NCBI RefSeq assembly: GCF_009914755.1
Contig: NC_060935.1
DNA: 64,000 bases
Origin: the human T2T-CHM13v2.0 reference genome, Homo sapiens
Reading direction: 5' to 3' (one strand)
The first letter of the stretch is position 1; each line of letters starts with the position of its first letter. The notes under the pieces are model-generated. The model searched no databases. It saw only the letters and a program-made list of their open reading frames with translations, and was not told the origin of the DNA. Below, in pieces: positions 1,581 through 29,045 of the stretch. Made by a program: the position numbers and the translations under genes.

Positions 1581-1623
1581 GGCAGCGTCAGTTCCTCTCA
1601 GTCTCCATTTGTGCAGATGCCAG
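1581..1623 (+). CDS. POU2AF2: POU2AF2/C11orf53 (OCA-T1) internal 43-nt coding exon, GSVSSSQSPFVQMP(G); phase 0 to 1. Upstream exons carrying the OCA peptide lie outside the window
   Basis: Acceptor ccttccag|, donor |gtgagt. Splices in frame to 4259. The ATG at 1617-1619 gives 7+302+402=711 nt = 236 aa, the length of the older C11orf53 model. Confidence 0.9.
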
Positions 1624-3241
1624 GTGAGTACTTTAATTCAATAAGCAATTATTCCCTTTTGAATTTAAATCAAGCATCTGGGCTTCCATTCTTTCATAAC
1701 GACCTTACAACACTTCCAAAACTCTGCTCCTTTAAAATAGTTTTGTCTAAAATACAAAATCAGCGAAGGACAGAACTCATGCAGTAATTTCTGAATTTAA
1801 AATTCATTTTGTCTTGAAAGCAGCCCTTTTATCCCAAGCTTTTGGGGCAAAGGCAATATAAATTATGCCCTTGATACAGTTTTAAATTGTCTAAAGTTCT
1901 GACACCATGATCTGATAGATGAGGCATCTGCTTTCAAACAGAAAGGGGAAAGCGGTCTGCGAGCAGAGGGAGTCAGGCATTTGGTTCAGTATTTTGAATT
2001 CATTTCAATGCCTATGTCTCATTAAATACTCCTGTGGGGATGTAAAAGGGGAATTCCTAATAATACTGTTGGACATTCTTGTATAAACACACACCACACA
2101 GGCAAAGACAATCTCATTTAGTTCAACTCAGACGCGGCACATTCCCTAATAGTTTTATCACCTTCAGAGCTGGATAAGGGAAAGGAATAAGAGCAATCGA
2201 GGATCCCGAATATTTAAATGTCTGTATGTTGTTTCCCAATCATATATAGTGCCATTGAAATTTGGTGGCATCTCCTGCCTTCTACAGAAAAAAAAAAGAA
2301 AAATTTCCATAGCTTCTCTTTATCTAGAAATTATCCTTTCTCTTTGTACAGAGAAAATCCATGCTAAGAGAGCAGAGGCTTTTTTCTTCGTGGTTGTTTT
2401 GATTTGGAAATTGGGAGTATAGATGAGAGCCTGGAAACCTTGTTTTCATATTCTCAACCTTAACCGCTCTCATAAATATAATTTCATTGTATGAAACAGA
2501 ACCTTATTTATTTATATTAAGGTTCAGCTGCACAGATTTTTTCCCAAGGAAGTATGCTTATAATGAAAACCCTAACTTCAGCTTTCAAATGCATGAGCAG
2601 GTTAGAAGTTATAGAATGTAAGATGAAAGTGAAGTGAGTGGAGTCGTGCCACAGGTTTTGATGGGGAATTTTGATTTCTTCTTCTGGATGAATAAATTCA
2701 CATGCCATTCTTGAACACAATGTTATACTACTAGGTTTAAAGAAAATGTATAAGGCATGAGATCTGCCCCCTTGGGCTCGCAGGTTGACTGGAAAGATCA
2801 TTGTGACTCAGGTGAAAGAGGAATGAGCATAATATAAAGTGCCACATCCTGTGGAACGGGCTGGAATTCTGTGTCTATAGAATCAGAAGCTCAGAAGTGG
2901 TCTGCTGCTGTGGTTGGGGTAAGGTAAGGAAGACAGGCACTTATATCTTCTCCCCAGTTCAGCCTTTTTGTGACCTATGACCTAAGGGTGTTGGTGTTAG
3001 CATTAGATCACACCCAAGGCCAGCTGGAACAATTAAACCATCAGTTTTATAGACCTCAAGTCTATGCCCTCAAACATGTTCTGAATGATCAGTGTTTTCT
3101 GCTACAACTGAGCTACGGGGTCAGAAAGTGTTGAGCAAACACACCTTTTTCCTTGGAAACCATTTCACTGCTGGGCTTACCTTAAATGAAGCTCTTATCA
3201 GTTTCTGTCCCTCCCTCTCTCCACCAAGGAAAACTTTTTAC

Positions 3242-3530
3242 TTTTTTTTTTTTTTTTTTTGAGACGGACTCTTGCTCTGGGCGAGATCTCAGCTCACTGC
3301 AACCTCCACCTCCCGGGTTCAAGTAATTCTCCTGCCTCAGCCTCCTGAGTAACTGGGACTACAGCAGCTGTGATTACAGGCATGGTGGCCCAGCTGATTT
3401 TTGTATTGTTTTTAGTAGAGATGGGTTTTCACCATGTTGGCCAGGATGGTCTCAATCTCTTGACCTCGTGATCCGCCAGCCTGGGCCTCCCAAAGTGCTG
3501 GGATTACAGGTGTGAGCCACCGAGCCTGCC
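3242..3530 (-). mobile_element. Alu (S-type, internally rearranged)
   Basis: Poly-T start; TSD ccaccaagg(a/g)aaacttt at 3221 and 3531. Confidence 0.92.
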
Positions 3531-4258
3531 CCACCAAGGGAAACTTTATGTAGCCGGCACTGTCTTCCTAAACGTGCTGGGCCCTGGTGAGTTGAGTGAA
3601 GGAGTCCCTGAGGCCACAAGAGGGCAGCAAATAACATAAAACTCATCAAAACCCTAAAACTACAGGCCTCTAAAATTGGCTTCTGTGTGGCCATCTAATC
3701 CTAAAGAAAGTCATTTATTGATGTCTGCCAGGCGTGCGACCCAGTGTAAGGTCAATGTGTGAAGAATTAGAAGGCAGAGTACAGCCTGCCTCTTTGAGGT
3801 GGGGTTATATGTGTTACCTTATCCAGACATAGCGATCTCAGATAACAGGCCAGGAGCACCTCTTGTTAACAGTTCTATGTATATGGAGAGGTAGCTCCGA
3901 TGTTGTGAAAAAGATGCTTCCTTGGTTAAAATATGAATGCCAAGAGATTATTTCATTTATGTCTTCCTAGCACAGCGCCGGTCACCGGGAAGGTACTCAG
4001 TAAATGTGAATGAATGAACAGACACGGTACTGTCTAAAATGAACTCACCCCTAAAGGCGACAATGTTTTCAAACGTTAGTTATTTGGGCTAATGCAGGAA
4101 TATTTCACGCTTTTCAAGACATTTCTCTATTTCCATGTTAGCGTTGGAGTCAGGCACGCGTTAGTAACATCGTTTCCCAGGAAGAGACTCAGCTGCAACC
4201 GAGGCCTTGACCGCCCTGGGAGGAATTTTCTGCCCATGTGTTTTTCATTTGGCAACAG

Positions 4259-4560
4259 GTTCGCCGGTCACGTCAGGTTACTACGGTGTCAGAAGATCTT
4301 TCTTATCTGACTCAGACTTCCACAACAGTAAACAGTTTTCAAATGACGTCTACACCTCCAGCGTGGGGAAGCCGTTTCCCTGTGAGTCCTCCGCAGGGCA
4401 GAGCCATGCGGCTCTCCTGGAGCCCTACTTCCCCCAGGAGCCCTACGGAGACTACCGGCCTCCGGCGCTGACGCCCAACGCGGGCTCTCTGTTCAGCGCC
4501 TCGCCCCTACCGCCGCTCCTGCCACCGCCCTTCCCCGGAGACCCAGCTCACTTCCTATTT
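4259..4560 (+). CDS. POU2AF2: POU2AF2 penultimate coding exon (GSPVTSGYYGVRRSF...DPAHFLF)
   Basis: Acceptor ggcaacag|, donor |gtgagt; 302 nt, phase 1 to 0; CpG-rich; same frame as ORF 4207..4593; protein recognised as C11orf53. Confidence 0.95.
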
Positions 4561-5835
4561 GTGAGTATGCAGAGACCTCGTGTGAGGGAGTAAAAGAGGG
4601 GCGAGGCTCGCCCTCTGGCCAGCCGCTGTGCTTGGCATCCGGGTTGAAGCCAGGTCTGGCTCACCCTGTAGACTCCAGAGGCTGCTTTGCAGCTGCCTAG
4701 AGATGCCAGGACACCCTCCGAGGGAGCCTTGTTCAAGGATCCCTGTTAGCCATGACAGCCAGGAGCGTCTACGCAGGGCTTGGAACCGGGAGGAATGTGC
4801 AGCAGGATTTATATCCATTTTGTTAATGCTCTACTGATATTGCCTGATGTTCCCCCACCCTGTTAGTGCCAGTCGTCATCATTCCTGCAGCCCCTAAGGA
4901 AGGAACACTGAAGCTGCATCTCAGACATGCTAGGCAGTAATGAGATGGATCATAATCTCCCAAGGAGGGTACATAGGGCTCCTCTTTCTTTCCAAGTCCC
5001 CTGCCTCCCCTTCCCCACATTTTTAGCCTAAAAATCCTTGTTCTCTCTCAATCCTTCCAAACAGGTGAGTTCATAAAGATCTGAAGATTGCTAATGCTCA
5101 TAGAGAATAGTAAAGGTTTCTACCACAAAGTAATGAAGCTCTAAAGACAGGAGTTTAGACAAAAGGGAGAGGATGAGAATTCACATTATTAAGTATACTC
5201 TATGCCAGGAAATGTGATGTGTTCATTCAATACTTGCAACAACTCAGGATATATTTATGAAAGTCCCATTTTACAGATGAGCAATGTCGGGCTCAGAGTC
5301 AGGAGGAGCCACGAATGAATCCAAATCTTTCTAGCTCCAAACTTACGGGATTCCTACCTCTTTCCTCCTGCTTTAATGAGGACAGAGTGGGCTTCTCAGT
5401 CCCCTCAAAAATTCACCATGGAGTTGAAGGCCTACTCCGAGGAGTGGGCCAAGCGCTGACCTTCCCCACTGTGTAAATGGCATTCTAGGACCCAGACTAA
5501 TGGGAGACTCAAAAAGAATCCAAGACAGAGTGCATTGCACACAGTAAAATGTTGCATACATGTGCATTTTATTAGTCTCACATTTCACTCATTTAATGTT
5601 GTCTTCTGGGAAAAGGAATCTCAATATCTATAGCAAATCTAATTCTAGAGTAGGAAGGGAGGAAAACTTTCACTGCTGGTGTCAAAAGCCGGAGAGAAGA
5701 GCAGCCTGAGAGCCAGGCTTCAGGCAGCAGAGAGAGGGGACGAAGGCTGCCCTGAAGCCACAGTCTGGCAGCACACAATGTATCATCAGAGTGTCACCTA
5801 GTGAATAACCTCCGTGGCCTTTCCATTCTCCTCAG

Positions 5836-6237
5836 AGGGACTCATGGGAGCAGACGTTGCCTGACGGTCTCAGCCAGCCTGACCCTGTGTCTGCCGATGC
5901 CCTGCTGACCTTGCCACCCAGCACGAGTTGCCTCTCCCAGCTTGAGTCCGGGAGCATCGCCCAGCACAGGGGCTCAAGCTGGGGGTCATCCCTGGCTGGG
6001 GCTCAGTCATACTCGCTGCATGCTCTGGAAGATCTGCACCACACTCCGGGGTACCCTACCCCGCCTCCTTACCCCTTCACCCCTTTCATGACGGTGTCAA
6101 ATGACCTACCGCCCAAGGTGGGGCCACTCTCCCCAGATGAGGAAGCAGACACCGGTTCCCTCCATGACCCTTCCCCTTGGGTGAAAGAAGATGGGAGTAT
6201 TGCCTGGGGGTCATATGAATGCCGCAGAGCTTATTGA
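5836..6237 (+). CDS. POU2AF2: POU2AF2 terminal coding exon (RDSWEQTLPDG...WGSYECRRAY*)
   Basis: Acceptor ttctcctcag|; 402 nt ending in TGA; same frame as ORF 5857..6237. Confidence 0.95.
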   Translation, partial: RDSWEQTLPDGLSQPDPVSADALLTLPPSTSCLSQLESGSIAQHRGSSWGSSLAGAQSYSLHALEDLHHTPGYPTPPPYPFTPFMTVSNDLPPKVGPLSPDEEADTGSLHDPSPWVKEDGSIAWGSYECRRAY

Positions 6238-13564: not shown

Positions 13565-15303
13565 AAGAAAATATCTTAACAGGAATAATCCAAAAGTTTT
13601 AATGGTTTTAATAAGTTAATTTAGTCATAAATGAGAGATCACTCAACTGTTTTATTTCTTAAGCTTGGTAATACAGTCATAGATTTTCATCATGGTATTC
13701 TTTATATGTTTTTGTATGCCTTAAATGTTGCACAATAAAAACGTTTTAAGTAATAGAAGAGGAACTCTTCAAGCAGTGTACGGTGGTGTTTTTCTTAAAG
13801 GATGAATTATCAAATGCTTGCTCCCCATGGAAGCCTCTTAAGGAAAAGTTAAAACTTTGAATATGTCTTATGGGAAGAGACTGACGTAGCACAAATCATT
13901 AAAAAACCTTCACCTAATTGTCTTCCTGGTCATTTTCATATGGACCAAATGTTCACTCTAGGGCCCAAAAAACATTTGTTTCCTGCATGTATTCAATCTT
14001 CTGGAACTTGATATTTCCCACGAGGTTTGGTAACAGTGTCCCAAAGTCAAGGTGACAAAAGAACTTTGCATTAATAAAGACAATTTCGAGCTGTAGTCAA
14101 ATTTGGAGGGAATAAACTACCCCTTTTCCTTATACTGAAAGTCTTTTAATATGCCTGTGCCTTAGTTGAATAAAATCTCCTACGTTGGGGGGAGAAAACA
14201 ATGCTCTGCAGTGTCATTTGCATACAAGACTGCCAAAATTTTTCAGTCAAAATATTCGTTTAAAACTTTAAAAAGAAATCTATTCCATTTCCATCACTTT
14301 GGGTATGGACTGGGTATAAGAAGGTTAAGGTCAAATACAGGATTTCTGAGGTCAATGGCAAGGATAGCCAGAGATCTGAAAAACAGTGATATATGAAGAA
14401 CTAAAGAAACTGGATGAGGAGTCTCAAAAGGAGAAGGCTTGGGGTGAAGATGGGATGGGCATAACTTCTTTAGAGTTAGTACTGGACCTGGTCAGAGTAG
14501 CTAATCAGTATATGATTGTTGAATGAATGAATAAACCAATTAATGAACTAAACAAACTCACAATAGAAAAGCAGTAGTACAGAAGTAGGAGAAGAGAGTA
14601 ATTGATAGCAGAAATCAAGGTTTACTTATTTTTGTACTCCTGGTACTTGATACCATGCCTAGTGCATAGTTGGTGCCCAATTAATACATGATTGGATTAT
14701 AGCATAATCACTGATCACTACATTTAAAGCAGTCCAATAGTGGAACAGGCTGCCTCACAAATAGTGAGCTCTCGTTTCCTCTACACAGATTCTACTATGG
14801 GCCAGGATCTCAGCCAAGCAGTGGAGCCAGAGGCTGGACAGACACAAGCAGAGATTTTGGAAAAAGACTGAGTCCCTCTCAGCACTTCAAAGATCCCTTC
14901 CAACACCCAAACATCAAAAGCCATGTTATATTGCCAAGCAAGGGTGCCTATGAACGCCTGTTGAAACCCCACAACAATTTTTTCAGCCATTTATTAAAAC
15001 CCCAAAGAGACTATCAGGACTTCAGGGCAAACATCCTAGAGATAGCAATGCCCCCAGCAAGAAGAAAAGAGTTCTCAGTCTGAGAGGCACAAACTGTAAT
15101 CAGTGTAATTAACAGCTTACCCTCACCTCTAGCCAGGCGTTTCTTCAAGATTCTAGTGTTTCCAGTCCTTACAGAACATTCTCAAGTCAGCAGGCTACAC
15201 TGTCTTAGTGTCCTTGTACAAACTGATGGTAAAACAGATAGCACCCCAAAATATTTCCACATGCACAAACAACCTTGAAACGTGTGTTCGCATATCTTAC
15301 AAG

Positions 15304-15570
15304 CAGGTATTTTTCCAATGCCACTCACAGCCTATTAGTGGGTCATTAAATTAACTCAGTGACTCCCAACCAACATATATTTCCCATAAATAGAATGAAA
15401 TGGAAAAGGTGGACTAGAATAGAAAATATCAGAGTGCCTGACATATGTAGGTATATCTTGTTTCATGAAAAGTTTGTTTTAGAAATATAAATGTTGTTAT
15501 AGATACATGTGAACATGTAAAATGGATTTCTTATTGTAGGTTAAAGTCCAAAAAGTTTAAAAGCTTCTTG
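15304..15570. mobile_element. Old hAT/MER-type DNA transposon remnant
   Basis: Resembles a non-autonomous Charlie-type element (attagtgggtc...gaaaatatcagagtgc...aaaaagttt); subfamily uncertain. Confidence 0.5.
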
Positions 15571-15611
15571 TAGAAAAGATCAGGAAGACAACATCAGTAG
15601 TTAAGAGCAAA

Positions 15612-15941
<330 letters not shown>

Positions 15942-16290
15942 CTAATTCTGCTACTGATATACTCAATGATCTTGGCATGCCACTTATTCCTCTGAGCCTG
16001 TTTCCTCACCTGTGGAATGTGAATGCTATACAATATAGCACCTGATGTCCAGTAAACAATAATGAGTCTCCTATGAAGTCTTCTCTGAGTCTCCTATGAA
16101 GAACAGCCAATGCTGTGGGTACCTGGGGTCTCAGGGTTGCTCTGGGCCTGATCATCCACTCAGATCTGTAAGGAGGATTTGCAGGATCCATTTAGAAAGA
16201 TCCTCCCTTACTTCCACAAGCATGGCCTTTGGCTCTTAAATACCTGTGCTGGGGTTTTGTAATTATAGAAACAACAGGAACCAAAACTCA

Positions 16291-16665
16291 TTAATGTTGA
16301 GCTACAAACCAGAGGGAAGCTTCTTTCTCAAAACAGGGCTCAGGCCTAGAAAAATCTAGTTTTCTGAAATCGCTAGCCAGCAACAGCACTGAGATGGCCA
16401 TCCCAGAAACAAGGCCAACACAGAAGCACCCATAAAGGCTGCTGGAGGTTGGGACAAAGAGATCCTTGCTGTCCTTACAGACCCCCTGACTTCCAAGGAG
16501 CTCCCCTCTCACCCAGCCTGGCCTGCCTTCTCCACAGGGTAGCTGATCGTCAGCATCATCTTCAATGGTGTTGTCAAGAGCACTCAGTGCTCCTGCCATC
16601 CCTGTCCATCTCCACATGAAAGGAGAGGTTAGCACTCCAGCCTGGGCGACTGAGCAAGACTCCAT
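16291..16665 (-). CDS. COLCA1: COLCA1/C11orf92 124-codon ORF (MESCSVAQAGV...LWFVAQH); coding status doubtful, gene often treated as lncRNA
   Basis: 375 nt from ATG at 16665 to stop at 16291; sequence recognised as COLCA1; hydrophobic segment LYGCFCVGLVSGMAISVLLLA; first codons are Alu-derived. Confidence 0.6.
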   Translation of the reverse strand: MESCSVAQAGVLTSPFMWRWTGMAGALSALDNTIEDDADDQLPCGEGRPGWVRGELLGSQGVCKDSKDLFVPTSSSLYGCFCVGLVSGMAISVLLLASDFRKLDFSRPEPCFEKEASLWFVAQH

Positions 16666-16692
16666 CTCAAAAAAAAAAAAAAAAAAAAAATA
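16633..16692 (+). mobile_element. Extremely 5'-truncated Alu (last ~36 nt plus poly-A)
   Basis: cactccagcctgggcgactgagcaagactccatctc-A(n); perfect 15-bp TSD gaaaggagaggttag at 16618-16632 and 16693-16707. Confidence 0.92.
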
Positions 16693-18699
16693 GAAAGGAG
16701 AGGTTAGGAAGGAGATGAAGCCTGAAAGCACTGGGAGGACACCCCAGCATAGGGGAACACAGAGACACGTGAAGCCAGGGAGAAAACCAGTAGTACAGAT
16801 AAGAAATGGAAGAAAGCAATGACAGGAAGAGAGACAAAGAAACACAGAAAGAAATAAACAAAAATGCAACAAAGAAGGTTTTTAAAAGCAAATCAAAAAA
16901 TAAGAGTATAACAAAAAGGAGGAGAGCAGCGAAGAAAAGAAGTAATGGAAGACGCTATGAGGACAAGAGACCATCCCTAGATTCCAAGCTGCTTGGTTCA
17001 CTGTTCCTTCAGAGGGGGCACGGCCTAGGCACAGCGAGGAAGAAGGCATGCAGGGAGGGGAGGTGCCATCTCCACCCCCATTGTCCTTCCCCTCCTCAGG
17101 TCTGGTCCATCAGGGAAACCTAGGACACAGGCTCAGGGGCATTTGTAGAAAGAAGTTCCAGAAGCTGTCAGATTTCAATACATCCATCCTGCCCTCCACT
17201 GCCAGGTGCCACCTCAGGTGTTCCCAGGCCTGCTCCTCTGCCCCAGAGATGTGGCTTCAGCTGCCAAGCAATTCCTATCAGTCTTGTCATTCTCAGTTGC
17301 CCTTTCCCTAAGCTCTGTGTGTTTCCCTCTGTATTTGACACATTTGGGGGCACCCCAATCTTTTTCTTGAGGCCTCTGGGGCTAAACTACACTTTTTGCA
17401 TTTCTGAGAACTCAGAGAATAAACAGCAGAGGCCTAAAACCATGGACTGGTCTTGAATCCTGGAAATATCTTGGTTATTTGCAAAAGGAACCTCACCATG
17501 CCTCTCTCTTCTCTTGCTGTCCCCTTCTGTGGAGGGGGCGGGTGGCTATGAGAGGACTTGGCCTGGCACTCTCTCCCTCTGTGGACCATTCCTGTCTCCT
17601 CACCTTCCAAATCACATGGAAGAGGCACAGTAAGTACTCACAGAAGATGACCCAGTAGAATCCCAAGTCATTAGTGAGGGGCTTGGGCCTGGACCAAGGG
17701 GGAAGCCTGATCCCAAGTCCCTCCCCCTTCTCACCCCAATGGGAGAAGGCTTGAACCTAAGTCCACATCCTTTCAGTTAAAATGAGCAGGAGCCAAACTT
17801 GTCATTGTTTCCTAACATGTGCTCCTACAGCAAAAAGGCAGGGGTGGCTCTAGAAGGCGAAAAAGCAAAGAGGGCACTTCGCAGTGCGGTGGTGAAACCC
17901 AGAGTCAGAAAGTCTCCAGAGGATGAGGCTCCTGGCATCCCCAGCTCTGTGGGGAGGAGGAAAGGGTCTTAATGGGCAGTCATTCTGAGCAGAAACCCCA
18001 GTGTCGGGCCCAGGAAGAGCGGGATGAAAGGGGGAGGGAAGCCCGCTGGTAGCCAGGCGGAGCCAGAAAAATAGGAGGTGCAGAGCGAAGGCCTCTGCTA
18101 GGCCGCTGGCCTGCCACCTGGGCCCAGAGCGACTTCTTGCTGTGCCACACCCACTAGCTGCCATGTTCATTCCTCAAAACCTGAGATTTCCCCTCAAAAC
18201 ACAGATGGGGGATGCGGGAATCAGTCTGGCCAGCCAGTCTGGCTCCGGTGTTCATGGCCAGGGCAGCCTAAGTCACTCATGGCTTCTTAGCTGCCCTGAA
18301 GGCTGAAATACAGAGCATCTTTGAGGACATCTGCTCTATCTGTGGGAAGGAGGACAAAATGCTCAAACTATAATAAAAGCAAGGGCCAGGACCCAAAGGG
18401 GTCTCACTCCCTGTTTCTCTGGACTCTCTGTGGGGTGCCTGTGTGCAGGATTTCTGCAGAAGATAGTCCATTTTGTTAAGCCTTTGAATATTCAAATTGA
18501 AAGTATCGCGCAATCATTGATTGTCAAATCATGGGTTTCTAGAGGTTTTAAATACTTGGCATGAGGGGGAAAATACTCAAACCTATACCCGAAGGTATAA
18601 AACATTAATTCTGTTTGTCTCCTGTTCCAGGGACCTGGGTGCAGCCGGATGCTTTGTGAAATTTTAAAAATGTTGCATCTCTGCTTCTCTCCCTGCCCC

Positions 18700-20300
18700 A
18701 GGAGCCCTCCCAGGCGCTGAGTCCCTGCTGCTGCAGCATCCAGCCACCGACCCAGCTCCTGCTGACCACGATGTCGGGTAACTCGGCTGCTTCTCCTAGG
18801 GTCGGGTCAGGCGGGCCAGGGGCATTTCAATCCGGGTGTGTTTCCACGGCTTTTCCTGCATAGAACAGAGAGGCACAAAGTCAAGGCATGCGAGTAAGGG
18901 CCGGGGATCCGGAGAGGACGCGAGCCACGCTGTGGCCGCTCCCACTCAGCGCCTGTCCCGGAGGGCAGAGGCCCAGAGGCCGAGTTGGCCGCTCCGGACG
19001 TCCGCGTACCCCAGGCCCCCGCCCGCCCTCCCACGTATCCACTGTTGTGTCCTGAGACACGCGGTGCGGACCCTGCGCGCCCAGAAGCTGCTACGGGGGG
19101 AGCTAGAGGCTCACAGTGAGCCTGGGACGGGGGCAGAGCGCACCGACTGCACTGAGCCGAGCTGTGGCGGTCCCTGCGCGGACCCCGAGGGGCGCCCGCT
19201 GCCCGCGGAGTCCGGAGCCGATCGGGGAACGGGGTGGTGGGGCTGCGGTAGGCTGGAGCGCGGAGAGGGCGCGGCGCCTGGGCCCTGCGGGCGGGGCACG
19301 GGATTCCCTGGGTCCGGGCTAGGAAGAGCGCAATCTCCTTTCCTGGGGAGACCCTAACTCCTGGAACCCGGCTTGAGGGGGATCCCTGCTGTCCAGCTGC
19401 GGTCCCCGCAGTGACCAGGCGAGGCGCTGGCATCCTGGCACTATCTCCAGGCGCCCAGGCTGAACGCGCGGTCACCCTCGGCCGCCGCACCCAGCGCACT
19501 TCCCGGCGCGATTCCTGGACGCACACTGCAGGGTAGTGGTCAGGGCCGGAGCCGCCCCGGACTCCTGCGGCCACCTCCACCTTGAAAGCTCGCCCGGCTC
19601 GGCTTGGCCTAACAGCCAGTCCCCAACCTACTCACTGCGGCTTTTCGGGGCCCGGGGCTGAGGCTGCCCCTGCTCCCAGCGCTCAGGGGTCCCTCCCAGC
19701 GAACCCCTCTTGAGCGCGCCCGCCACCTCCCGCGAGCCGGGGCAGTCCGACCGGGCCCCGCCAGCCCCGGGGCGGCCCCTACCGAAGGGCGGCCTCCCGG
19801 CGGAGTGCAGGGTCATCGGGAGCCCCGGACGGCTTTCCCCAGCTCGCGCTGCGCGGACTCGCCCCGGAGCCTCAGTGCGCCTCGGAGAAACGCCTGCCCC
19901 AGAAAGGGAGGGGGTAGGGAGAGAGGGGAAGAAGGGGAGAGTAGGAGCGGGGGCGAAGGAGGGAGGAGGGCAAGATGGAGCGCGGAAAAGGCGGAGAAAA
20001 GGGGCGAGGGAGAGCGGGCAGAAGGCAAAGACAGAAGGGAGCGAGGGAGGGAGTTCCTCGGGCCTGGCCCCTTTACTAGGTCAGTCTGGCAGGTACCTCG
20101 CCGGCCCAGGACGGGGCTGGCCAAACCTCACCGCTTGCTCCCGGGCTGGCTTCCAGACCAAGGGCACGCAGAGGTCGGAGCCTGCCCAGAAGCCACACCT
20201 GGCCAGGTGGAGAAGGAAGGGACTCGGGACTTCCATGCTAGTGGGAACATCACAGTGGGGTGGGCTACGTCAGCCGTCATAATCAGAGAAAGCCCCCTGC
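18700..20300. promoter_or_regulatory. CpG island / bidirectional promoter region of POU2AF3 and COLCA1
   Basis: Very high GC and CpG density with GC boxes, covering POU2AF3 exon 1 and intron 1. Confidence 0.9.
18771..18777 (+). CDS. POU2AF3: POU2AF3/COLCA2 (OCA-T2) coding exon 1: ATG TCG G (M-S-)
   Basis: accacgATGTCGG|gtaact, with A at -3. The phase-1 donor joins 20716 to give MSEKPKVYQGVRVK. Total CDS 7+95+55+230+369=756 nt = 251 aa. Confidence 0.85.
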
Positions 20301-20639
20301 CCCAGGCCTGGCCCCTCCCCAGGTCCATAATACCCTCTCTCTCGGCTGTCTGGGTCTGAAAGCCAAGGTTCCCCCGACCTAATCAGAGTGGTGGGCTCCG
20401 CTGCACTGGTCTCCATATTCCAGAGCAGAAAAACCCGTTTGCTATTGGCCTAGGACTGAGGCCCAGCCAGGGGTGGATGGCCCCACAAATTTCCACGGAT
20501 TCTTTTCCTACTGGGGCTCTGAAACCTGCTCAGCCACTCTTCATTCTTTCAAGTTTGAAATGTTTGGGTTTTTACCATCCTTTGACATTTTTTGTGTGTG
20601 TTCTCCAAACTTAGAAACTTGGCTTTGGGTGCCATAGCC

Positions 20640-20647
20640 TATAAAAG
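20640..20647 (+). promoter_or_regulatory. Consensus TATA box (cTATAAAAGGGG) upstream of POU2AF3 exon 2
   Basis: Perfect TATAWAAR match 76 nt before the exon 2 acceptor; function inferred. Confidence 0.45.
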
Positions 20648-20715
20648 GGGCCCCCACTCTGCACCCTGGCACCCAGACCTTGGACTCGACCACTGACTCA
20701 GTTGCCTTTCTCCAG

Positions 20716-20810
20716 AAAAACCGAAGGTGTATCAAGGTGTCCGAGTGAAGATCACAGTGAAGGAGCTGCTGCAGCAAAGACGGGCACACCAGGCGGCCTC
20801 CGGGGGAACC
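20716..20810 (+). CDS. POU2AF3: POU2AF3 exon 2, OCA peptide (EKPKVYQGVRVKITVKELLQQRRAHQAASGGT)
   Basis: Acceptor cctttctccag| with branch-like ctgac, donor |gtaagc; motif matches the OCA-B POU-binding peptide YQGVRVK..VKELL. Confidence 0.95.
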
Positions 20811-21779
20811 GTAAGCATAAGCCCTTCCCTCATTCCCCAGCCCATGCCAGGCCTCTTTCAACGCTGTGTCTGCAAGGTGTGGAGGCCACTCAAGGCCCCA
20901 CGCACTCACCATTCCCAGACCTGGCCTTCCTCTGCTGTTCCTATGACTTCTGTACCCAGCTGCATCCCAATCGGGAAGCTACAGAGGACAGCTGGGGCAT
21001 GTTGTGGGGCTCAGGATTTGGGGGAGCCCATCCATCCCCCATGGGTGAAAGTAAAGTATAAAAAGTGCGTTGGTCCTCTGCAGGGGGAGGAGCGGCCAGC
21101 AGGTAAGTAGACATCGTTTTGTTAGGAAGACAGTGTATATATGTACAGCCCTTGCAGACCCATAGAAAATCTATCCCAGAAATTCACCTCATTTTAGGGG
21201 CCCCTTCCAGGATAGCATCTGTGTGGAACATCCTCCCTTCCCTCCTCATTCTTCTGGAACTCACCCTCTGAGATCATTTATCTGTAAATCATCAGTTACC
21301 TAAAGTATCTAGCAGAAAAGGGCCCTGTCTCTGCAGAAGAGACAGCTGGAGTACAGGACCACTTCCCTAAAATGTATCAACACCTTAAGCAGTTTCAGGT
21401 TATTACAAAATTGAACTGAGCAGTCATAAGGGTATACCCTGACACTTTATACACCTTCCTACGGTAAGTACTGCCAAAGGCACTCAGGGCAGCAACAGAA
21501 CCAAATAAACTAGGTGGGGTTATTGCCCAAGAGAGGGCAGCTCATCCCTAAAAAGCCTCAATCATACAATTGCTTGGGGGTTGGTTTGGGTGTGAACATA
21601 GGATCTGACAGCTGGGGCTCATATTGCCTCTGTTAGGATTGGCCCTTCTCCAGCCCATTGGCATCTGCCCCACGACAGTTTTTGTGCCTGATGCTGTTCA
21701 TGTGACTTCATGAAATAGGCCTTTGACAGCGGGACTTCTTGAAATGGGAGGGGGCAAATGATGTAGGGGAGGTAAACAC

Positions 21780-21990
21780 AGGTTCCAGAACCAGATGGAC
21801 TGGGCTCAGATCTCAGTTCCTCCATGGTGTGTATCCTCAAGCAAATTACCCAATTCCCCTTGCCTCTGTTTATTCGTCTTCAAATTGGGGATGATAGGAT
21901 TTTGTGAGGGTTAATCGAGTTATTGCATACAAAGCCGTTAGAAGAATGCTTTCCACATAGTGAGTGCTCAATAAATGTTAGTTGTCATTA
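21780..21990 (+). mobile_element. MIR
   Basis: MIR core and 3' end (gtgctcaataaatgttag). Confidence 0.75.
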
Positions 21991-23415
21991 TTTGAGAAAT
22001 AATAATATTATCTGGGGAAAGCAACTAATATTCCAACCAAGGATTGAAAGCCAGCTATTTGGTAATGTTTGTTCACACCCTTTGCTCAGAGTTTAGAGTT
22101 CAGATGCGAGCCAGCTGCAATTTGGCATATACAGCACATGCAGCTGGAAAAGTAAGGACCTCCATGTGCAGAATTTCAGGTAACGCATTAACACTCCCTT
22201 ACATTTCTAGAGGACTTCACAGTGGTTCTTCTTTTAAAGCACTTTTGCACAGCCACTATTTCATTTAGTTTTTATAACAACCAGCGGAGGTAAGTAGATC
22301 AGAGATCTGTACCTCGATTACAGGCAAAATTCAAAACCTTGAAGTTGCTCATGGCAACGCTAAAACTAGGACTAAGGTCTTTTTCTTAGTGTAATATAAA
22401 AACCCTTCTGTTGGCTCTTTATGCTCTAAATTCATCATTCTGCAGATCTGACGATACTAAGCAGGAGTCTGATAGCCTCAACCCCTTCAGTTCAGAGATG
22501 GTTATATAATTAACAAAACCAGGTACAAGGGAACTGGAAAATGCTTCTGGAGAAAAACATCATCAAGACTTTCATAATAAAATGTAACGTTTCCTTAAGG
22601 AGCTTTGGTACTTGCTACAGTTCTGCTCAGCTGCACCTGGAGAGCCCCATGTGAGTGTGGCACTTCTGTTGCTGCTGGGCCCTTACAGATGGGTGTGGCC
22701 ACTGTTCCCTTCTTAGCTCGCTACAGGAGCTAATGTGAGGGTAATACACTTCACTTGTGTATCTGACCAGTTTCTGTTCCCCGGAGTAGTTTGACTTATT
22801 TAAATTTTTCTGAATTCCCTCCTGAGAAATAAAGCAGGACTTCTGAACCAGTGTCTTATAGGAACAGGCAGAGTAAAGCCTGCTCTACTTTGCTTCCCTT
22901 AAGACTGCATCAGCCTATGCCCTCGCAAGCAAGCAGGTTTAACACGCATATAATTTAATTACAAAAGCCAGACGTAAAATCCCTCACTGGAAGCCATCGG
23001 ATGGATCTGGGATTCTAAAGAAGCTGTGAGAGCGTACTTAGTAGGCAAGGGTAGCAGACACCAGGGGATGATGTTGCCTGCTTCTTAGTGTAGACCTTTC
23101 TGGTATAACAGAGATGATCCCCAGTTTGTTCATTTGTTGAAGGATGCCTCTGGGAAACTTTAAGCCAAGGAGAGGGTTAATTATATCAAATACTACAAAG
23201 TGGCAAGAAATCTATCTTAATTTGTTATAAAGTCAGTGTAGTATCCACAATTCAAAATTTTAAGAAGGCAATCACGAATGGAAGTTATAGGTTGAGACAG
23301 ACATTCAGTAAAGAATTCAAATATTCTTCAAGCAGTGCCGGAAGAAACTGTGTGTATGCCGGATTGGAACACTCGATTTTAAAAAACTTATTTCAGCCAG
23401 ATCAATTTGCAAACA

Positions 23416-23450
23416 TGCGCATGCACGCACACACACAGACACACACACAC
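23416..23450. repeat. Interrupted (CA)n / alternating purine-pyrimidine tract in POU2AF3 intron 2
   Basis: tgcgcatgcacgcacacacacagacacacacacac. Confidence 0.85.
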
Positions 23451-25108
23451 TTGCCTTTGGGGTAAAAGGAAACTTGAGTTAGTCGTTATCAAAAGATATC
23501 ATTTACCTTTCTTTTTTTAAATCATTAATTTTTTAAACAGCCTTGATGTGTTTTTATAAATTGTAGACTGTGAATTTTTGTGCTGTTTGAAATCTAAGAG
23601 AGAGTTGCCTTTCTTTGTATTCTTGGAGCAAAGTAGAAAGTGAACCCATGACTAGAAAGATAATATCAAGTAGGATATTGTAAACACACCTCAGGGAGAT
23701 AACATGGGGTGGAGGCAGACAAACAGGCCAATCCGGGGGAGGAATGGAGTTAAGGAAAGCTCTACAATGAGGCAGATTTTTTAATACCCACTCCTTCCAA
23801 GTCCTTCAGCTCAAGCTGCAGCCAAATATTTGCATAAAGAGCTGGTAAAGGATTCCAGCTTCCTGGTTCATGACATTACAGCATGGATCGTTTTCAAAAT
23901 TAATACTGCCTCCTGTTTCAGCAGTGGCTGCCTGCACAGCTCTCCCTGTGGCTCAGAGTATGGGAGTGAGTATGCCCTGTAACCCAAAAGAGGTGTGGTG
24001 AGCTCGGCTTCCCAGCACAGAATCACAGAGCAATACGGGTACCTTTAAACTTTAAAGCCACACCTGAAATTTAAAAAAAAAAAAAAAATCCTAAATTACT
24101 CAGTATAATTATTAATTCAACTGAAAAATGCAGGCTGCTTTACTTTGAATAGTTAAAAAGAGCAGTCTCATAAACTTTTAAGTATTTAAATACAGTAGTT
24201 TAAATAAAAGCAACTTTTATAGATAGTAGTACAAAACATACAAAGTACTGGAATAATTCCCGACCATTAACTAGAATGAAAGTAGGTTCCAACTCACCAA
24301 CCACAGCTTTAAGAAAATATTTTCTATTTTAATATTTCATGTATACTAAGAACATGTGAATATTTTTAGCTACTCAGAATTAACAAAATTAAGAATTGTG
24401 TTCTTTGGGGAAACGACTCCCTAAGGCTAAGTAGCCAGATGGTATATGAAATTTTTGAGAAAAATAATTGACTAAGCCATAGATAGTTGAGATTAAATAA
24501 ATGTTAGTCCTTAATAATTTTAAATCGAATAGTTTAATAGGAAGCCTTTTGCTGCATTTTCTCAAACTGTTACATTTTTACCACATAAAATTATTTACAT
24601 TAATTTTTTACTAAAAATTAATCACTTTTAAAATTTAAGTAGAAGAATCTGATATTAGGAAAAAAACTCCCCAAGCAAGCAAACATAAATATTGGATCTA
24701 GATAAAACATAATATTGGTTGTATTTAAGAAGTCTGTTTTATGATTTGATTTCAGGTTTTCATTGTTCCAATGCAATTTTCCAGATTGAATCTTAAAAGG
24801 ATTATAAACGTCAAAAGGCATTTTAAATTCTACACGGACTTAATACACCTACCGCAATTCTATGCACCTGTCTTTCAAATTCTATAAAATATTTGTTGAC
24901 ACTTTCCCTTTCACTTGTTTTTTACAATATATTTTGTACAAAAATTTGTCAAACATTGAAAAAAAAAAAAGAAAGCAACTTTTTCTGAGAAGGAAGAATC
25001 TGGCTTACCTTATAGCAGAAAGAAACATAGTCCTCATCAAAATGTCTTAGCTTTCCCTTCAGAGCATTTCTTTCAGCCTGCTTCACGGTGATATTCTTGC
25101 TTTGACAG

Positions 25109-25163
25109 CGGTCCGGAGGCAGCAGTGTCCACCTTTCAGACCCAGTTGCACCATCTTCTGCAG
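25109..25163 (+). CDS. POU2AF3: POU2AF3 exon 3 (RSGGSSVHLSDPVAPSSA-G), 55 nt
   Basis: Acceptor ctttgacag|, donor cag|gtcagt; phase 0 to 1 keeps the frame between exons 2 and 4; absent from the ORF track. Confidence 0.88.
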
Positions 25164-26574
25164 GTCAGTACAGCCAGCATTAACAGTTCCCTCAAACACT
25201 CTTTCAAAAGTCCATCTCAAAAGTCTTTCAGTCTTGATTCAGGGGTTAAGATAGGCACCACCATTTAATTGGAATCCAACCAATCAGAAGGTGAAAAAGG
25301 CATAGTCACTCCACATGCAAGCCCAGCAAGAAAACAAGCATAAATGTTGTCTTCATTTCTGAATTCTCTACTCTCTGCTATATTGTCTCAAGAGTTTGTT
25401 CTTCACATTTATTCCAGTTCCTCATCGCCAAGTAACTAAACTGAACTACAAAATCAGAATTGTTCTCAGGAACTTATCTTTTTTTAGTGCACTGTTAGAT
25501 GGAATACAGAACATCCCAAGACACTCAAATAATGCCTTTGCTCTGTTCCTTTAGTTTCCAGCCGACAGGGGCTTCCCTCCCCTTCTCTGTTCCCAGAAAG
25601 CAGTTCAAACAAGTGTAGGTTTTCTCAGCCCAATAAGAATAACTCGATTACATAAACACTCCTACCTCTGCTACTCAACAGCTAAGAGTTTAAGGAGGTC
25701 GTATATAAGGAAACCTCTGCCTATGGCCTCTCCCCACTAAATGTGTCACCGTAGCTTCACCTTAAAGGAACTTGAGACCTCAAGAAGAACACAGTGTCCT
25801 TTAGTCCCTTTGATGAGCACACTCTAATCCTCTCTTCTTCCAGCATTTACAGATAATTATCACAAATTGGGCCTATTAATAATAAAATGGAAAAGGAGTA
25901 ATGTTTACTGATTATCTTTGTTTGATGTTTAACAACTTACTTTGATCACATCATGATGTTAACATGTTCACTGAGAAAACATTTTTGCTTTTTGTACTTC
26001 CGAGCCAATAGTGTTAATTGGTACTCTATGGTCCTGGTTTCCATGATTATCATTTGCATTCTCATTTAAATCACTTCTCAAAATTCTCTCCTCCAAACTT
26101 AAGTTACTGAGTAAGAGTGAAAAGTTCAAAAAAGCAATCACCATAAGTCAAAAGAATTATTTCCCGTAGCATCAGAAGTTTTCTCAAAGCCTCAACAACT
26201 TTGTCAGTTACTTCTGAGAGGTTTACGTGAACTGCCGGTAGGGGCTGGATGTCCATGGTTTTACAGCCCAAGAAAGGGGAAGTTTGAGCCATTATTTGAC
26301 TGTGACACTTGGACACAAATTGGGTCACCATCCTTTTATTTTTGCCCTAACCAGTTTTACAGCCAGTTTCCACATTATTAACCATGTTCATTTCCCTGGA
26401 GCTTGAATTAGCTAGGACAACTAAAGAGTCAAAATTGCATTCCCGTTTACTTTTCTGGATTTGTTAAGCCCCCTTTCCCCCTAGACATAGTAAATATTCA
26501 GAGTATAGATCTCCATTCAAATCTGTGTTTTGCAATTTTTATGCAAAAACCTGCCTTTTTCCTTTCTCCTCTAG

Positions 26575-26804
26575 GACTGTATTTTGAGCCTGAACCAATT
26601 TCTTCCACGCCCAATTATTTGCAACGGGGAGAATTTTCCAGTTGTGTTTCATGTGAAGAAAACTCAAGCTGCCTCGACCAGATCTTTGATTCCTACCTTC
26701 AGACAGAGATGCACCCGGAGCCTTTGCTCAATTCCACACAAAGTGCTCCACACCATTTCCCAGACAGCTTCCAGGCCACCCCTTTCTGCTTTAACCAGAG
26801 CCTG
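26575..26804 (+). CDS. POU2AF3: POU2AF3 exon 4 (GLYFEPEP...PFCFNQSL)
   Basis: Long pyrimidine tract plus ctag|, donor |gtaatt; 230 nt; the internal ATG at 26709 starts the older 154-aa COLCA2 ORF. Confidence 0.93.
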
Positions 26805-28249
26805 GTAATTTTTCTCAGTTCTTTATATACCTGATTGTGTCTAACTATGGGGTAATAGTGCTTTGTGAGTTTGCACCATCCCGTGGGAAATCATACAAAA
26901 ACTATCAGCAAGGAAATCATCCAAGGAAACAAGCAGAGAAGAATTTAAAAGTCAATGTATAGAAGTAGCCACACACTGCAGGGCATAAACCTTTGGATAC
27001 ACACGTAATTTAGATTTCCCAAGATTTAGATTTTTCGGCCACCAAGTAAGTTGGTGGGTAGCAATAAAAAGAGGTTCCTGGCAATATTCATTTAATGTTT
27101 TTTAAACTGTAAAGTCAAGAGACCTACTAATTGGAAGTCAGTGGTTTAAACAATGGCTCTTGGATTTTTTGATGGAATTTTGAGTTCTTGGAAATGGAAT
27201 TAAGGCTGTGTATATATGGTAACAAACTTCATTTCATTAGGGGGAGGTTTTGCTTTGTTTTGTCATTGAACTGGCTCTACTAACTGATAGTTTGAGTCTG
27301 CTATAAGCACAATAACTCATTTGGGTCTGAGATGGTTAGTAAAAATGAAGCCGTAATCTTTGAAAAAAATTAAATTGGTTGTTCTCGGTGGATCTCAAAT
27401 GTTTGAAAATGTGTTATCCTTCAAAATGAAGTAAGGTTTCTATTAGTGGAAACTAGTTATTTCAGTTGTCTTTTAGAGACTCACAGGTTTGTTTTGTAAA
27501 CCTTAAATTGTAAAGTTTTCTTTTTTAAGGAATGTAAATACTTTTTGCCTTTGGATTGTCAAAAGTCTGTGTGGGCATCAGACTAAATTTTAGAGCGGAT
27601 AGGAAATTAACTCTGCAGAATATGCACATTGTCACGGGGAAAATATGGGGCCCCAGTGACCCAGTTCCTTCCCAGCCTCCAAGTTAGGTTTTCTCAGTAA
27701 CAATTGTAGACTTGCTTAAGAGAAAACAGACAGTAGCTCTCACTCCAGGGAACAAGACTTTAGTGGCGAGACAGGTAGTGACACATCTTGGCATATGCCA
27801 GGGATACTCCAAGATCCTTGAGGATCCAAGTTATGCCTTTGCATGATCACCTGATTCTTCATGGTGAGGGTGTGGAGAAACATCCAGGGTGCCACCTACA
27901 GCTTAGATTGTGGCATACAGCAGGATTTGATATGCAGGTGACTTGAAGCACAATGGGATTTTGTGGTTTCAGAACGAGCACCCTCTAAAGTAGGATTATA
28001 ACAAAGGAAGCCAGTGAAGCAAGGCAATTTATTGTTTGGAAAGAAATAGGTAACTATAGATTGTGGTGTCATGAAATCATGTAGTCAGCAAATAAAATTA
28101 CTTCTGCAGACTTGGGTTGGGTGTTGTTTCGTTTGATTTGGTTTTTTACCCCTCATTTTCTCACTCTGCATTGGTAAACCCACACTGTTCAGTTCTTTGA
28201 TCCTGTCTAAGTTATTAAGCTCTTTGTTTCTTGGTTGTCATTTCTCTAG

Positions 28250-28618
28250 ATCCCAGGATCACCTTCAAATTCCTCCATTCTCTCTGGCTCCTTAGACTAC
28301 AGTTACTCGCCAGTGCAGCTGCCTTCATATGCTCCAGAGAATTACAATTCCCCTGCTTCTCTGGACACCAGAACCTGTGGCTACCCCCCAGAAGACCATT
28401 CCTACCAACACTTGTCCTCACACGCCCAGTACAGCTGCTTCTCCTCGGCCACCACCTCCATCTGCTACTGCGCATCGTGTGAGGCAGAGGACTTGGATGC
28501 TCTCCAGGCAGCAGAGTACTTCTACCCGAGCACAGACTGTGTGGACTTTGCCCCCTCAGCAGCCGCCACCAGTGATTTCTATAAGAGGGAAACAAACTGT
28601 GACATCTGCTATAGTTAA
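28250..28618 (+). CDS. POU2AF3: POU2AF3 terminal coding exon (IPGSPSNSS...TNCDICYS*)
   Basis: Acceptor tttctctag|; 369 nt to TAA; same frame as ORF 28313..28618. Confidence 0.95.
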   Translation: MPGSPSNSSILSGSLDYSYSPVQLPSYAPENYNSPASLDTRTCGYPPEDHSYQHLSSHAQYSCFSSATTSICYCASCEAEDLDALQAAEYFYPSTDCVDFAPSAAATSDFYKRETNCDICYS

Positions 28619-28893
28619 TAGAAATTACAGTAATTCAGAACATGGCATGGGTATATCTATTTTTCTACCACGTCTAGATGACACTGCAAAATATGCAACT
28701 TGGTAACACAATATCCCAAGCACAGTTTACATGTCACTATTTCCAATTTTCTGATGCTAAGCATTCATATGAAGTCCTCAGACCCGGTCACAGCGCCACT
28801 CCTACTTTGTATGCTCATAGTTTAAATTTTTGTAGGAAACTTTCAATTGTTTTACTTTTTGTATAACGAACAAATGCTGTCTCCTTTTTTACT

Positions 28894-28899
28894 AATAAA
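28894..28899 (+). terminator. POU2AF3 polyadenylation signal AATAAA
   Basis: Canonical hexamer ~275 nt after the stop, in T-rich context. Confidence 0.75.
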
Positions 28900-29045
28900 T
28901 AATTTTGTATTACTAACTGTTGGATTTTTTTTAATTTCCAGTAGTCATTTTTAATTGATTTGAACATTATCCATTAATTCTGGAAATTGCTAATTACTCT
29001 CAAGTGGTTTAATCTTATGGATTCATGAATTTAAAATTATTTTTA

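What the first reader, a model, noticed from the sequence alone, without database searches (positions are those of the whole stretch)
18771..28618. Splicing recovers a 251-aa OCA-B-like POU coactivator (POU2AF3/OCA-T2) whose OCA peptide the short ORF misses
Seen: five GT-AG exons join in frame (7+95+55+230+369 nt), starting from a 7-nt coding exon. Exon 2 (20727-20783) encodes VYQGVRVKITVKELLQQRR. Established: this matches the POU-domain/octamer-binding peptide of OCA-B (POU2AF1, YQGVRVKEPVKELL), and POU2AF2 and POU2AF3 are POU2F3 coactivators in tuft cells and tuft-like small-cell lung cancer. The older 154-aa COLCA2 ORF starts at 26709 and lacks the motif. This is the main system in the window; it is published, not new.
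Basis: partly seen in the sequence, partly recalled or inferred. Interest (0 to 1): 0.85.

Follow-up and report, generated by a model that had tools for sequence, protein, structure and literature searches.

The report
Human POU2AF3 (OCA-T2) coactivator gene
This stretch is the already published human gene POU2AF3, whose five spliced exons encode a 251-residue helper protein that docks onto the tuft-cell transcription factor POU2F3 on DNA, so the reading is correct but not new.

Summary
The five pieces (7+95+55+230+369 nt) are all GT-AG bounded. They join to 756 nt, giving 251 aa plus TAA with no internal stop. Coordinates 20727-20783 encode VYQGVRVKITVKELLQQRR. The exon-2 peptide is 100% identical over 31 aa to chain B of PDB 9PFN/9PFO. 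It also matches POU2AF2 (9PFP, E 4e-5) and OCA-B (1CQT, E 7e-5). Those entries are crystal structures of OCA-T2 residues 1-38 with the POU2F3 POU domain and octamer DNA (PMC12755459). Co-IP, a motif mutant and a GAL4 activation assay are also published (PMC9576728).

- The three 11q23.1 paralogues share five coding exons, intron phases 1,0,1,0 and a tiny first coding exon of 16, 10 or 7 nt.
- Only exon 18735-18777 supplies an in-frame ATG. The five other annotated 5' exons are alternative first exons, and they leave a 154-aa ORF from M98.
- M98 is Met in 12 of 88 mammalian orthologue clusters, all primates, and Thr in 73.

Verdict: already known, low interest.

The parts
18735..18777 (+). POU2AF3 exon 1: 36-nt leader plus the 7-nt coding start ATGTCGG (18771-18777). 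It is the only annotated 5' exon that supplies an ATG in frame with the OCA peptide.
   Evidence: Context ACCACGATGT, donor GTAACT.
20716..20810 (+). Exon 2 (95 nt), encoding the OCA peptide. VYQGVRVKITVKELLQQRR is at 20727-20783.
   Evidence: PDB 9PFN/9PFO chain B is 100% identical over 31 aa, E 7.1e-16. A published sgOCA-T2 guide maps to 20724-20743 on the minus strand.
20694..20696 (+). In-frame TGA just upstream of exon 2. It blocks read-in from the extended exon 20213-20810.
25109..25163 (+). Exon 3 (55 nt), phase 0 to 1. The paralogues have 43 nt here.
26575..26804 (+). Exon 4 (230 nt). It contains ATG 26709-26711 (M98), the start of the 154-aa OCA-less ORF.
   Evidence: M98 is Met in 12 of 88 orthologue clusters.
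28250..28916 (+). Exon 5: coding 28250-28618 (369 nt, TAA), then the 3' UTR with AATAAA at 28894-28899.
   Evidence: The exon-5 peptide is 59-100% identical in 88 mammalian protein clusters.
19113..20206 (+). Five annotated alternative first exons (19113-19247, 19465-19532, 19498-19913, 19498-20206, 19964-20079). They lie inside a CpG-rich block and none gives an OCA-bearing ORF.
   Evidence: None is preceded by AG and all are followed by GT. The longest ORF is 154 aa from M98. Over 18700-20300, GC is 0.695 and CpG o/e is 0.70.
13576..18855 (-). COLCA1 last exon, antisense, covering POU2AF3 exon 1.
   Evidence: Hub table. The acceptor ...TGCAG was checked.
25009..25229 (-). COLCA1 first exon, antisense, covering POU2AF3 exon 3.
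   Evidence: Hub table. The donor GTAAGC was checked.

Best explanation
The interval is the human gene POU2AF3 (OCA-T2, formerly COLCA2/C11orf93).

Shown by sequence here: transcripts that start at 18735 splice a 7-nt coding exon onto exon 2, so residues 4-34 come from exon 2 and contain the OCA peptide.

Shown in print:
- The OCA peptide lies along the major groove of an octamer site (ATGCAAAT, with A at position 5). Its short helix docks on the POU-specific subdomain of POU2F3, forming a DNA-dependent ternary complex.
- The remaining region (aa 26-251) acts as a transactivation region.

Shown by sequence here, with translation inferred: transcripts that start at the alternative first exons 19113-20079 carry exon 2 as untranslated leader. 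The longest ORF they leave runs from M98 and gives a 154-aa protein without the docking peptide.
For: - Exon structure and ORF.
- Identity to the crystallised OCA-T2 peptide and similarity to OCA-T1 and OCA-B.
- Structure paper, passages read (PMC12755459). The construct is UniProt A8K830-5 residues 1-38. The named contact residues V11, V17, K18, L20, L21, R24 and R25 match the window's numbering.
- Cell Discov 2022, passages read (PMC9576728). It reports co-IP with POU2F3, loss of binding and of rescue with VKELL changed to DAAPP, and GAL4-fusion activation by aa 26-251.
- Own-genome search finds only four OCA-like peptides: this one, POU2AF2, POU2AF1 and one on chr3. They share 11 invariant columns.
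- The three paralogues share five coding exons, intron phases 1,0,1,0 and first coding exons of 16, 10 and 7 nt. They give 256, 288 and 251 aa with no internal stops.
- Orthologues: 88 clusters match, and every one that carries a species name is a placental mammal. In a chosen set of 18, 15 start MSEKPK and 17 carry YQGVRVK. The mean majority fraction is 0.936 for exons 1-2.
- Composition: residues 1-40 have 8 K/R against 2 D/E. Residues 41-251 have 4 K/R against 26 D/E.
Against: - Pfam PF09310 is borderline. The 31-aa exon peptide scores 25.1 bits against a cut-off of 25.7. The 251-aa ape orthologue P0003 scores 22.7 bits. Only 16 of 88 orthologue clusters carry the precomputed Pfam label (my count from the table).
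- The 27.3-bit genome match reads past the exon into intron.
- No RNA-seq, CAGE or ribosome data could be examined here. Use of the 18777/20716 junction therefore rests on RefSeq, UniProt, the published cDNA work and orthologue models.
- Only 19 of 88 orthologue clusters start MSEKPK, and 66 of 88 carry YQGVRVK. Many gene models miss the 7-nt exon.
- Mouse work weakens an obligatory tuft-cell role in normal gut. Full-length Pou2af3 is nearly undetectable in small-intestinal crypts (bioRxiv 10.1101/2022.10.19.512785). Pou2af3-/- mice keep their colonic tuft cells (PMC12013567).
Confidence: 0.97

Rival explanations
1. The biologically dominant product of the locus is the OCA-less 154-aa protein (or non-coding transcripts) made from the CpG-island alternative promoters. 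It would have a POU-independent or competitor role, and the 251-aa coactivator would be a minority product confined to rare cell states.
For: - 5 of the 6 annotated first exons give no OCA-bearing ORF.
- The Gut 2024 paper states that only two of six Ensembl POU2AF3 transcripts encode the POU2F-interaction domain. The strongest eQTL it quotes (p=8.3e-38) is listed among four p-values in an order that places it on a non-domain POU2AF3 transcript.
- Peltekova 2013 reports isoforms of 154-379 aa and cytoplasmic staining in many cell types.
- In mouse crypts the full-length isoform is nearly undetectable.
Against: - M98 is Met in only 12 of 88 orthologue clusters, all of them primates, and Thr in 73. 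In the set of 18 orthologues, 3 have no internal Met at all. A conserved 154-aa product is therefore unlikely.
- The N-terminal 34 residues are the best conserved part of the protein, 0.936 against 0.78-0.84 for the other exons.
- Growth rescue needs the intact motif.
- The analogous short Pou2af2 isoform was reported as non-functional.
Confidence: 0.1
2. OCA-T2 works mainly with POU2F1/OCT1 (or POU2F2) rather than POU2F3 outside tuft-like cells. Tuft or SCLC-P biology would then be only one of its uses.
For: - Zhou et al. note COLCA2 dependency in the myeloma line JJN-3, where POU2F1 rather than POU2F3 is expressed and essential.
- Pou2af3-/- male mice are infertile, yet colonic tuft cells are not reduced.
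- The OCA peptide is close to that of OCA-B, which binds OCT1 and OCT2.
Against: The solved complexes and the co-IP are with POU2F3. No binding data with POU2F1 or POU2F2 were seen in the passages read. This reading adds to the main explanation and does not replace it.
Confidence: 0.2
3. The five-exon ORF is a chance product of GT/AG dinucleotides and is not a real coding sequence.
For: None found. The first coding exon is only 7 nt, and its donor GTAACT is not a strong consensus.
Against: - 1 of 20000 shuffles stays open, and the other frames hold 4 and 10 stops.
- The peptide is identical to a crystallised peptide.
- The protein is conserved across placental mammals.
- Both paralogues show the same micro-exon architecture.
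Confidence: 0.01

Closest known systems
Human POU2AF3 / OCA-T2 (RefSeq NM_001271458.2; UniProt A8K830-5; PDB 9PFN, 9PFO)
   Same: It is this gene. The CDS coordinates equal the RefSeq row given by the hub. The exon-2 peptide is 100% identical over 31 aa to the PDB chain.
   Different: Nothing found.
POU2AF2 / OCA-T1 (C11orf53; PDB 9PFP). Its last three coding exons lie at 1581-6237 of this window.
   Same: It has an OCA peptide (E 4e-5), five coding exons, intron phases 1,0,1,0, a tiny first coding exon (10 nt) and the same chromosomal cluster. It is also a POU2F3 coactivator.
   Different: It is 288 aa against 251 aa. BLASTP similarity is limited to residues 6-77 (34.7% identity, E 9e-9), and nothing significant is seen in the C-terminal parts (E above 2). 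Mouse knockouts differ: Pou2af2 is needed for gut tuft cells and Pou2af3 is not.
POU2AF1 / OCA-B / OBF-1 / Bob1 (PDB 1CQT)
   Same: It has an OCA peptide (E 7e-5), the same exon plan and phases, and a first coding exon of 16 nt. Its docking mode is reported as highly similar.
   Different: It is the B-cell partner of OCT1 and OCT2. The C-terminal two thirds of the Pfam PF09310 model match only POU2AF1 exons in the genome. Similarity to POU2AF3 stops at about residue 48.
OCA motif of IkappaB-zeta (PROSITE PDOC52003, InterPro IPR047571)
   Same: The fourth OCA-like peptide in the genome is at chr3:104564918-104564995 and shares the 11 invariant columns. It has Ile where the others have K/R. PROSITE describes that substitution for IkappaB-zeta (PMC12807641).
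   Different: The motif is internal in an ankyrin-repeat protein and is not part of a POU2AF paralogue. That the chr3 site lies in NFKBIZ is my recall plus the match to PROSITE's description. It was not taken from an annotation table.

Membership tests
POU2AF / OCA coactivator family | N-terminal OCA motif (R/K)xYQGVRVKxxVK(D/E)LLxx(K/R)R, as written in PMC9576728 | tested here: met
   The window gives K-V-YQGVRVK-IT-VKELL-QQ-RR at residues 6-25.
POU2AF / OCA coactivator family | Significant sequence similarity to the solved OCA-B peptide | tested here: met
   phmmer against PDB: 1CQT chain I at E 7e-5, 9PFP at E 4e-5, 9PFN/9PFO at E 7.1e-16.
Pfam PF09310 (PD-C2-AF1) | Score at or above the gathering cut-off of 25.7 bits | tested here: inconclusive
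   - Exon-2 peptide alone: 25.1 bits.
- Ape 251-aa orthologue P0003: 22.7 bits.
- Rat P0084: 29.9 bits.
- Pika P0054: 24.5 bits.
- Six-frame genome read that runs into intron: 27.3 bits.

The model is built on full-length OCA-B, and only its first 40-60 or so positions match.
POU2AF / OCA coactivator family | DNA-dependent ternary complex with a POU2F POU domain on octamer DNA | not testable with these tools
   Published crystal structures 9PFN/9PFO use residues 1-38 (passages of PMC12755459). The chain is identical to the window's exon-2 translation. Co-IP and a motif mutant are reported in PMC9576728.
POU2AF / OCA coactivator family | C-terminal transactivation region | not testable with these tools
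   Published GAL4 fusion of aa 26-251 activates a reporter. Here residues 41-251 have 26 D/E against 4 K/R, with 43 Ser and 16 Tyr in the whole protein. The region is conserved among orthologues at 0.78-0.84.
POU2AF / OCA coactivator family | Paralogous gene structure and position in the 11q23.1 cluster | tested here: met
   Coding exons are 16/131/43/266/315, 10/110/43/302/402 and 7/95/55/230/369 nt. All three genes have intron phases 1,0,1,0 and lie within about 135 kb on one contig.

The most novel reading that the evidence does not exclude
Primates gained an AUG at codon 98, which is Thr in 73 of 88 orthologue clusters and Met in 12, all of them primates. By inference this was an ACG to ATG change at a CpG.

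This AUG lets transcripts from the CpG-island alternative promoters (19113-20079) make a 154-aa protein. In those transcripts the OCA exon is only leader. The 154-aa protein keeps 154 of the 226 residues of the mapped activation region but cannot dock on POU factors.

[quoted passage not shown] Promoter choice at this locus would then be a regulatory switch of its own.
Probability: 0.1. Interest if true: 0.4.

Novelty: already known. Interest (0 to 1): 0.1.

Why it matters
POU2AF3/OCA-T2 is a lineage coactivator needed by some POU2F3-type small-cell lung cancers. It is also the 3' partner in EWSR1::POU2AF3 sarcomas and sits in the 11q23.1 colorectal-cancer risk locus. All of this is in print, so the finding adds no new biology.

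Its practical value is as a check. A reader working from raw sequence alone recovered a 7-nt first coding exon and the functional peptide correctly.

The small additions made here are the shared micro-exon and intron-phase plan of the three paralogues, the fact that only one of six first exons permits translation of the docking peptide, and the primate-restricted start codon of the old 154-aa ORF. These help in deciding which transcripts matter.

Tried and rejected
- **Chance ORF.** Rejected.
- **An in-frame ATG from other annotated 5' exons or from the extended exon 20213-20810.** None exists. The single ATG at 19975 gives a 34-aa out-of-frame ORF. An in-frame TGA sits at 20694.
- **Variable exons acting as internal cassettes.** One search also modelled them spliced after exon 1. 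One such model gives 296 aa with the OCA peptide. None of the five has an AG acceptor, so I treat them as first exons and that model as unsupported.
- **A zinc-binding cysteine cluster in the C-terminal part.** The protein has 12 Cys. Only 5 (C79, C124, C201, C203, C206) are at least 90% conserved in the 18 orthologues. The Pfam Cas_CXXC_CXXC hits are below cut-off (E 0.024, E 0.13). Not pursued further.
- **C-terminal similarity among the paralogues.** No BLASTP hit better than E 2.
- **Exon 3 in Pfam.** Its translation was too short (17 aa), so one search failed and was repeated without it.
- **Wu et al., Nature 2022.** Not held under its DOI or PMC id. I know it only through other papers' text and reference lists.
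- **A 120-kb fetch around the cluster.** A 40-kb fetch was made in its place.
- **Structure or complex prediction.** None was run, because solved structures exist.
Full report
**1. Observation**

Reading the five stretches and splicing them by coordinates confirms every number in the finding.
- The ATG at 18771 opens a 7-nt coding piece, ATGTCGG, followed by GTAACT.
- The four downstream exons (20716-20810, 25109-25163, 26575-26804, 28250-28618) are each preceded by AG. Each internal one is followed by GT.
- The joined 756 nt translate to 251 residues plus TAA, without an internal stop.
- VYQGVRVKITVKELLQQRR is encoded at 20727-20783.
- The ATG at 26709 is codon 98, in frame, and opens 154 residues.

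The open frame is not a chance effect. The two other frames of the spliced sequence hold 4 and 10 stops, and only 1 of 20000 shuffles stays open. AATAAA sits at 28894, 17 nt before the annotated 3' end. The coordinates equal the RefSeq CDS that the hub attached.

**2. What it is**

The 31 residues encoded wholly by exon 2 were searched against all PDB chains, and 3 distinct sequences matched at E up to 10:
- "POU class 2 homeobox associating factor 3" (9PFN/9PFO chain B): 100% identity over all 31 residues, E 7.1e-16.
- POU2AF2 (9PFP): E 4e-5.
- The OCA-B peptide of 1CQT: E 7e-5.

I read passages of the paper behind 9PFN, 9PFO and 9PFP (PMC12755459). It describes crystal structures of OCA-T2 residues 1-38 (UniProt A8K830-5) with the POU2F3 DNA-binding domain and octamer DNA. 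The paper reports that the N-terminal coil runs along the DNA. The backbone amide of V11 bonds the adenine at octamer position 5. The helix docks on the POU-specific subdomain through V17, K18, L20, L21, R24 and R25. In the window's translation these numbers fall on exactly those residues.

Passages of PMC9576728 report three further results:
- COLCA2 co-immunoprecipitates with POU2F3.
- Changing VKELL to DAAPP reduces binding and abolishes growth rescue in NCI-H1048.
- Residues 26-251 fused to GAL4 activate a reporter.

A published guide RNA against OCA-T2 (bioRxiv 10.1101/2024.01.21.576304) maps once in the window, at 20724-20743 on the minus strand, inside the OCA peptide. For the junction they are answered only indirectly, through the cDNA and UniProt isoform.

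**3. Family and gene structure**

A six-frame search of the window's own genome with the exon-2 peptide found four places:
- this exon;
- one inside POU2AF2, upstream of the window;
- one inside POU2AF1, downstream on the minus strand;
- one on chr3.

The four peptides share 11 invariant columns: Q, G, V, R, V, K, V, K, L, L, R. The chr3 peptide has Ile where the others have K/R. PROSITE describes exactly that for the OCA motif of IkappaB-zeta (PMC12807641), so that motif is also published.

I fetched the paralogues' first exons and located their exon edges. The exon plans are:

| Gene | Coding exons (nt) | Protein (aa) |
|---|---|---|
| POU2AF1 | 16/131/43/266/315 | 256 |
| POU2AF2 | 10/110/43/302/402 | 288 |
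| POU2AF3 | 7/95/55/230/369 | 251 |

All three have GT-AG introns, no internal stops and intron phases 1,0,1,0. The odd 7-nt coding exon is therefore a family trait.

Protein similarity between the paralogues is confined to the N-terminal 40-115 residues (E 9e-9, 4e-8 and 7e-7). Nothing better than E 2 is seen further on.

Pfam PF09310 is built on full-length OCA-B and is borderline for this protein:
- 25.1 bits for the exon peptide, against a cut-off of 25.7;
- 22.7 bits for the ape full-length orthologue, 29.9 for rat and 24.5 for pika;
- 27.3 bits for a genome read that runs into intron.

Membership therefore rests on the motif, the PDB matches, the gene structure and the published structure. 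It does not rest on Pfam.

**4. Orthologues**

The exon-5 peptide (122 aa) found 88 protein clusters at E up to 1e-3 among 500 candidates, at 59-100% identity. Every cluster that carries a species name is a placental mammal. That search covered only proteins of 215-2000 aa and needs shared words, so absence elsewhere is not shown.

I chose 18 clusters of about 250 aa and aligned them. Mean column identity is 79%. In that set:
- 15 of 18 start MSEKPK.
- 17 of 18 carry YQGVRVK.
- The part encoded by exons 1-2 is the best conserved, with a majority fraction of 0.936. Exons 3, 4 and 5 score 0.775, 0.843 and 0.818.

Over all 88 clusters, 66 carry YQGVRVK and 19 start MSEKPK. The rest are mostly gene models with other predicted N-termini. 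The region called "poorly conserved" in print is poorly conserved between paralogues but well conserved between orthologues.

**5. Isoform logic**

The five other annotated 5' exons (19113-19247, 19465-19532, 19498-19913, 19498-20206, 19964-20079) are each followed by GT, but none is preceded by AG. They are alternative first exons. They lie in a CpG-rich block (18700-20300: GC 0.695, CpG o/e 0.70).

None supplies an ATG in frame with exon 2. The only ATG among them, at 19975, gives 34 residues out of frame. The extended exon 20213-20810 meets an in-frame TGA at 20694. In all such transcripts exon 2 is leader, and the longest ORF is the 154-aa one from M98.

This agrees with three published statements:
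- COLCA2 isoforms of "154 to 379 amino acids" (PMC3949167).
- A mouse short Pou2af3 isoform that lacks the binding domain (bioRxiv 10.1101/2022.10.19.512785).

What I did not see in the passages read is the state of the M98 position across orthologues. Among the 88 clusters:
- Met in 12: apes, Old World and New World monkeys, Nycticebus, and one unnamed cluster.
- Thr in 73, including tarsier and lemur.
- Ser in 1 and Ile in 1.
- Unreadable in 1.

In the set of 18, three orthologues have no internal Met at all. The 154-aa ORF is thus a primate-restricted by-product of a Thr-to-Met change, whereas the 251-aa form is the conserved one. I have not searched the literature for this specific point, so I do not claim it is unpublished.

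**6. Surroundings**

COLCA1 runs antisense. Its first exon (25009-25229) covers POU2AF3 exon 3, and its last exon (13576-18855) covers POU2AF3 exon 1. Its splice sites check out as GTAAGC and ...TGCAG.

EWSR1::POU2AF3 sarcoma fusions join at POU2AF3 exon 2 (PMC11932835). Because exon 2 begins inside codon 3, such fusions keep the whole OCA peptide. That last step is my inference.

**7. Mechanism, shown and inferred**

Shown here: the exon structure, the ORF, the identity to the crystallised peptide, the paralogous architecture, the conservation, and the fact that only one first exon allows translation of the peptide.

Shown in print: the DNA-dependent ternary complex, the dependence on the motif, the activation by residues 26-251, and the SCLC-P dependency.

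Inferred: that scanning ribosomes on alternative-promoter transcripts start at M98, after a one-codon ATG-TGA at mRNA position 270, and that the 154-aa product has any role.

**8. Verdict**

The finding is correct in both observation and interpretation, and it describes a known, structurally solved human gene. Novelty: already known. Interest: low.

Noticed in passing
Whole window. Sites at 9372, 10919, 14216, 23828, 26052, 33553, 34566, 36869, 46954, 47443, 48209, 49230, 50021, 53399, 56946, 57752, 62436.: The consensus octamer ATGCAAAT, the site that POU2F-OCA complexes read, occurs 17 times in the window.
- Dinucleotide shuffles give a mean of 4.67, and 0 of 100 reach 17.
- It is the most frequent of all 840 8-mers of the same composition.
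- Twenty arbitrary GC-matched 10-kb stretches of the genome give 18 per 200 kb, or 5.76 per 64 kb (Poisson P about 1e-4).
- The next 40 kb towards POU2AF1 hold only 3.
- Five sites lie in 46954-50028. That cluster is not significant at the window's own density (P 0.086).
- By my recall of L1 text, about four sites (9372, 33553, 36869, 62436) lie in L1-like sequence.

This is a possible autoregulatory enhancer landscape. I did not see it described in the passages I read.
   Followed up: partly
L004 / G000 chr3:104564918-104564995 (+): A fourth OCA-like peptide in the genome (FQGVRVKNSVKELLLHIRSH) has Ile at the K/R position. It matches PROSITE's published OCA motif of IkappaB-zeta.
   Followed up: partly
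26709-26711: The start codon of the 154-aa ORF (M98) is Met in 12 of 88 orthologue clusters, all primates, and Thr in 73. By inference this was an ACG to ATG change at a CpG.
   Followed up: yes
13576-18855 (-) and 25009-25229 (-): COLCA1 exons lie antisense over POU2AF3 exon 1 and exon 3. The spliced COLCA1 RNA holds a 124-aa ORF deep in its last exon, at mRNA position 2412, far from the first ATG. This fits its present lncRNA label.
   Followed up: partly
1581-1623, 4259-4560, 5836-6237 (+): The last three coding exons of POU2AF2 lie in the window. Joined with its two upstream exons they give 288 aa without a stop. Its exon 3 is 43 nt, the same length as POU2AF1 exon 3.
   Followed up: yes
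19675-19874: The RefSeq 'silencer' lies inside the CpG-rich block that holds the alternative first exons of POU2AF3 and the antisense COLCA1 exons (hub table). It was not examined further.
   Followed up: no
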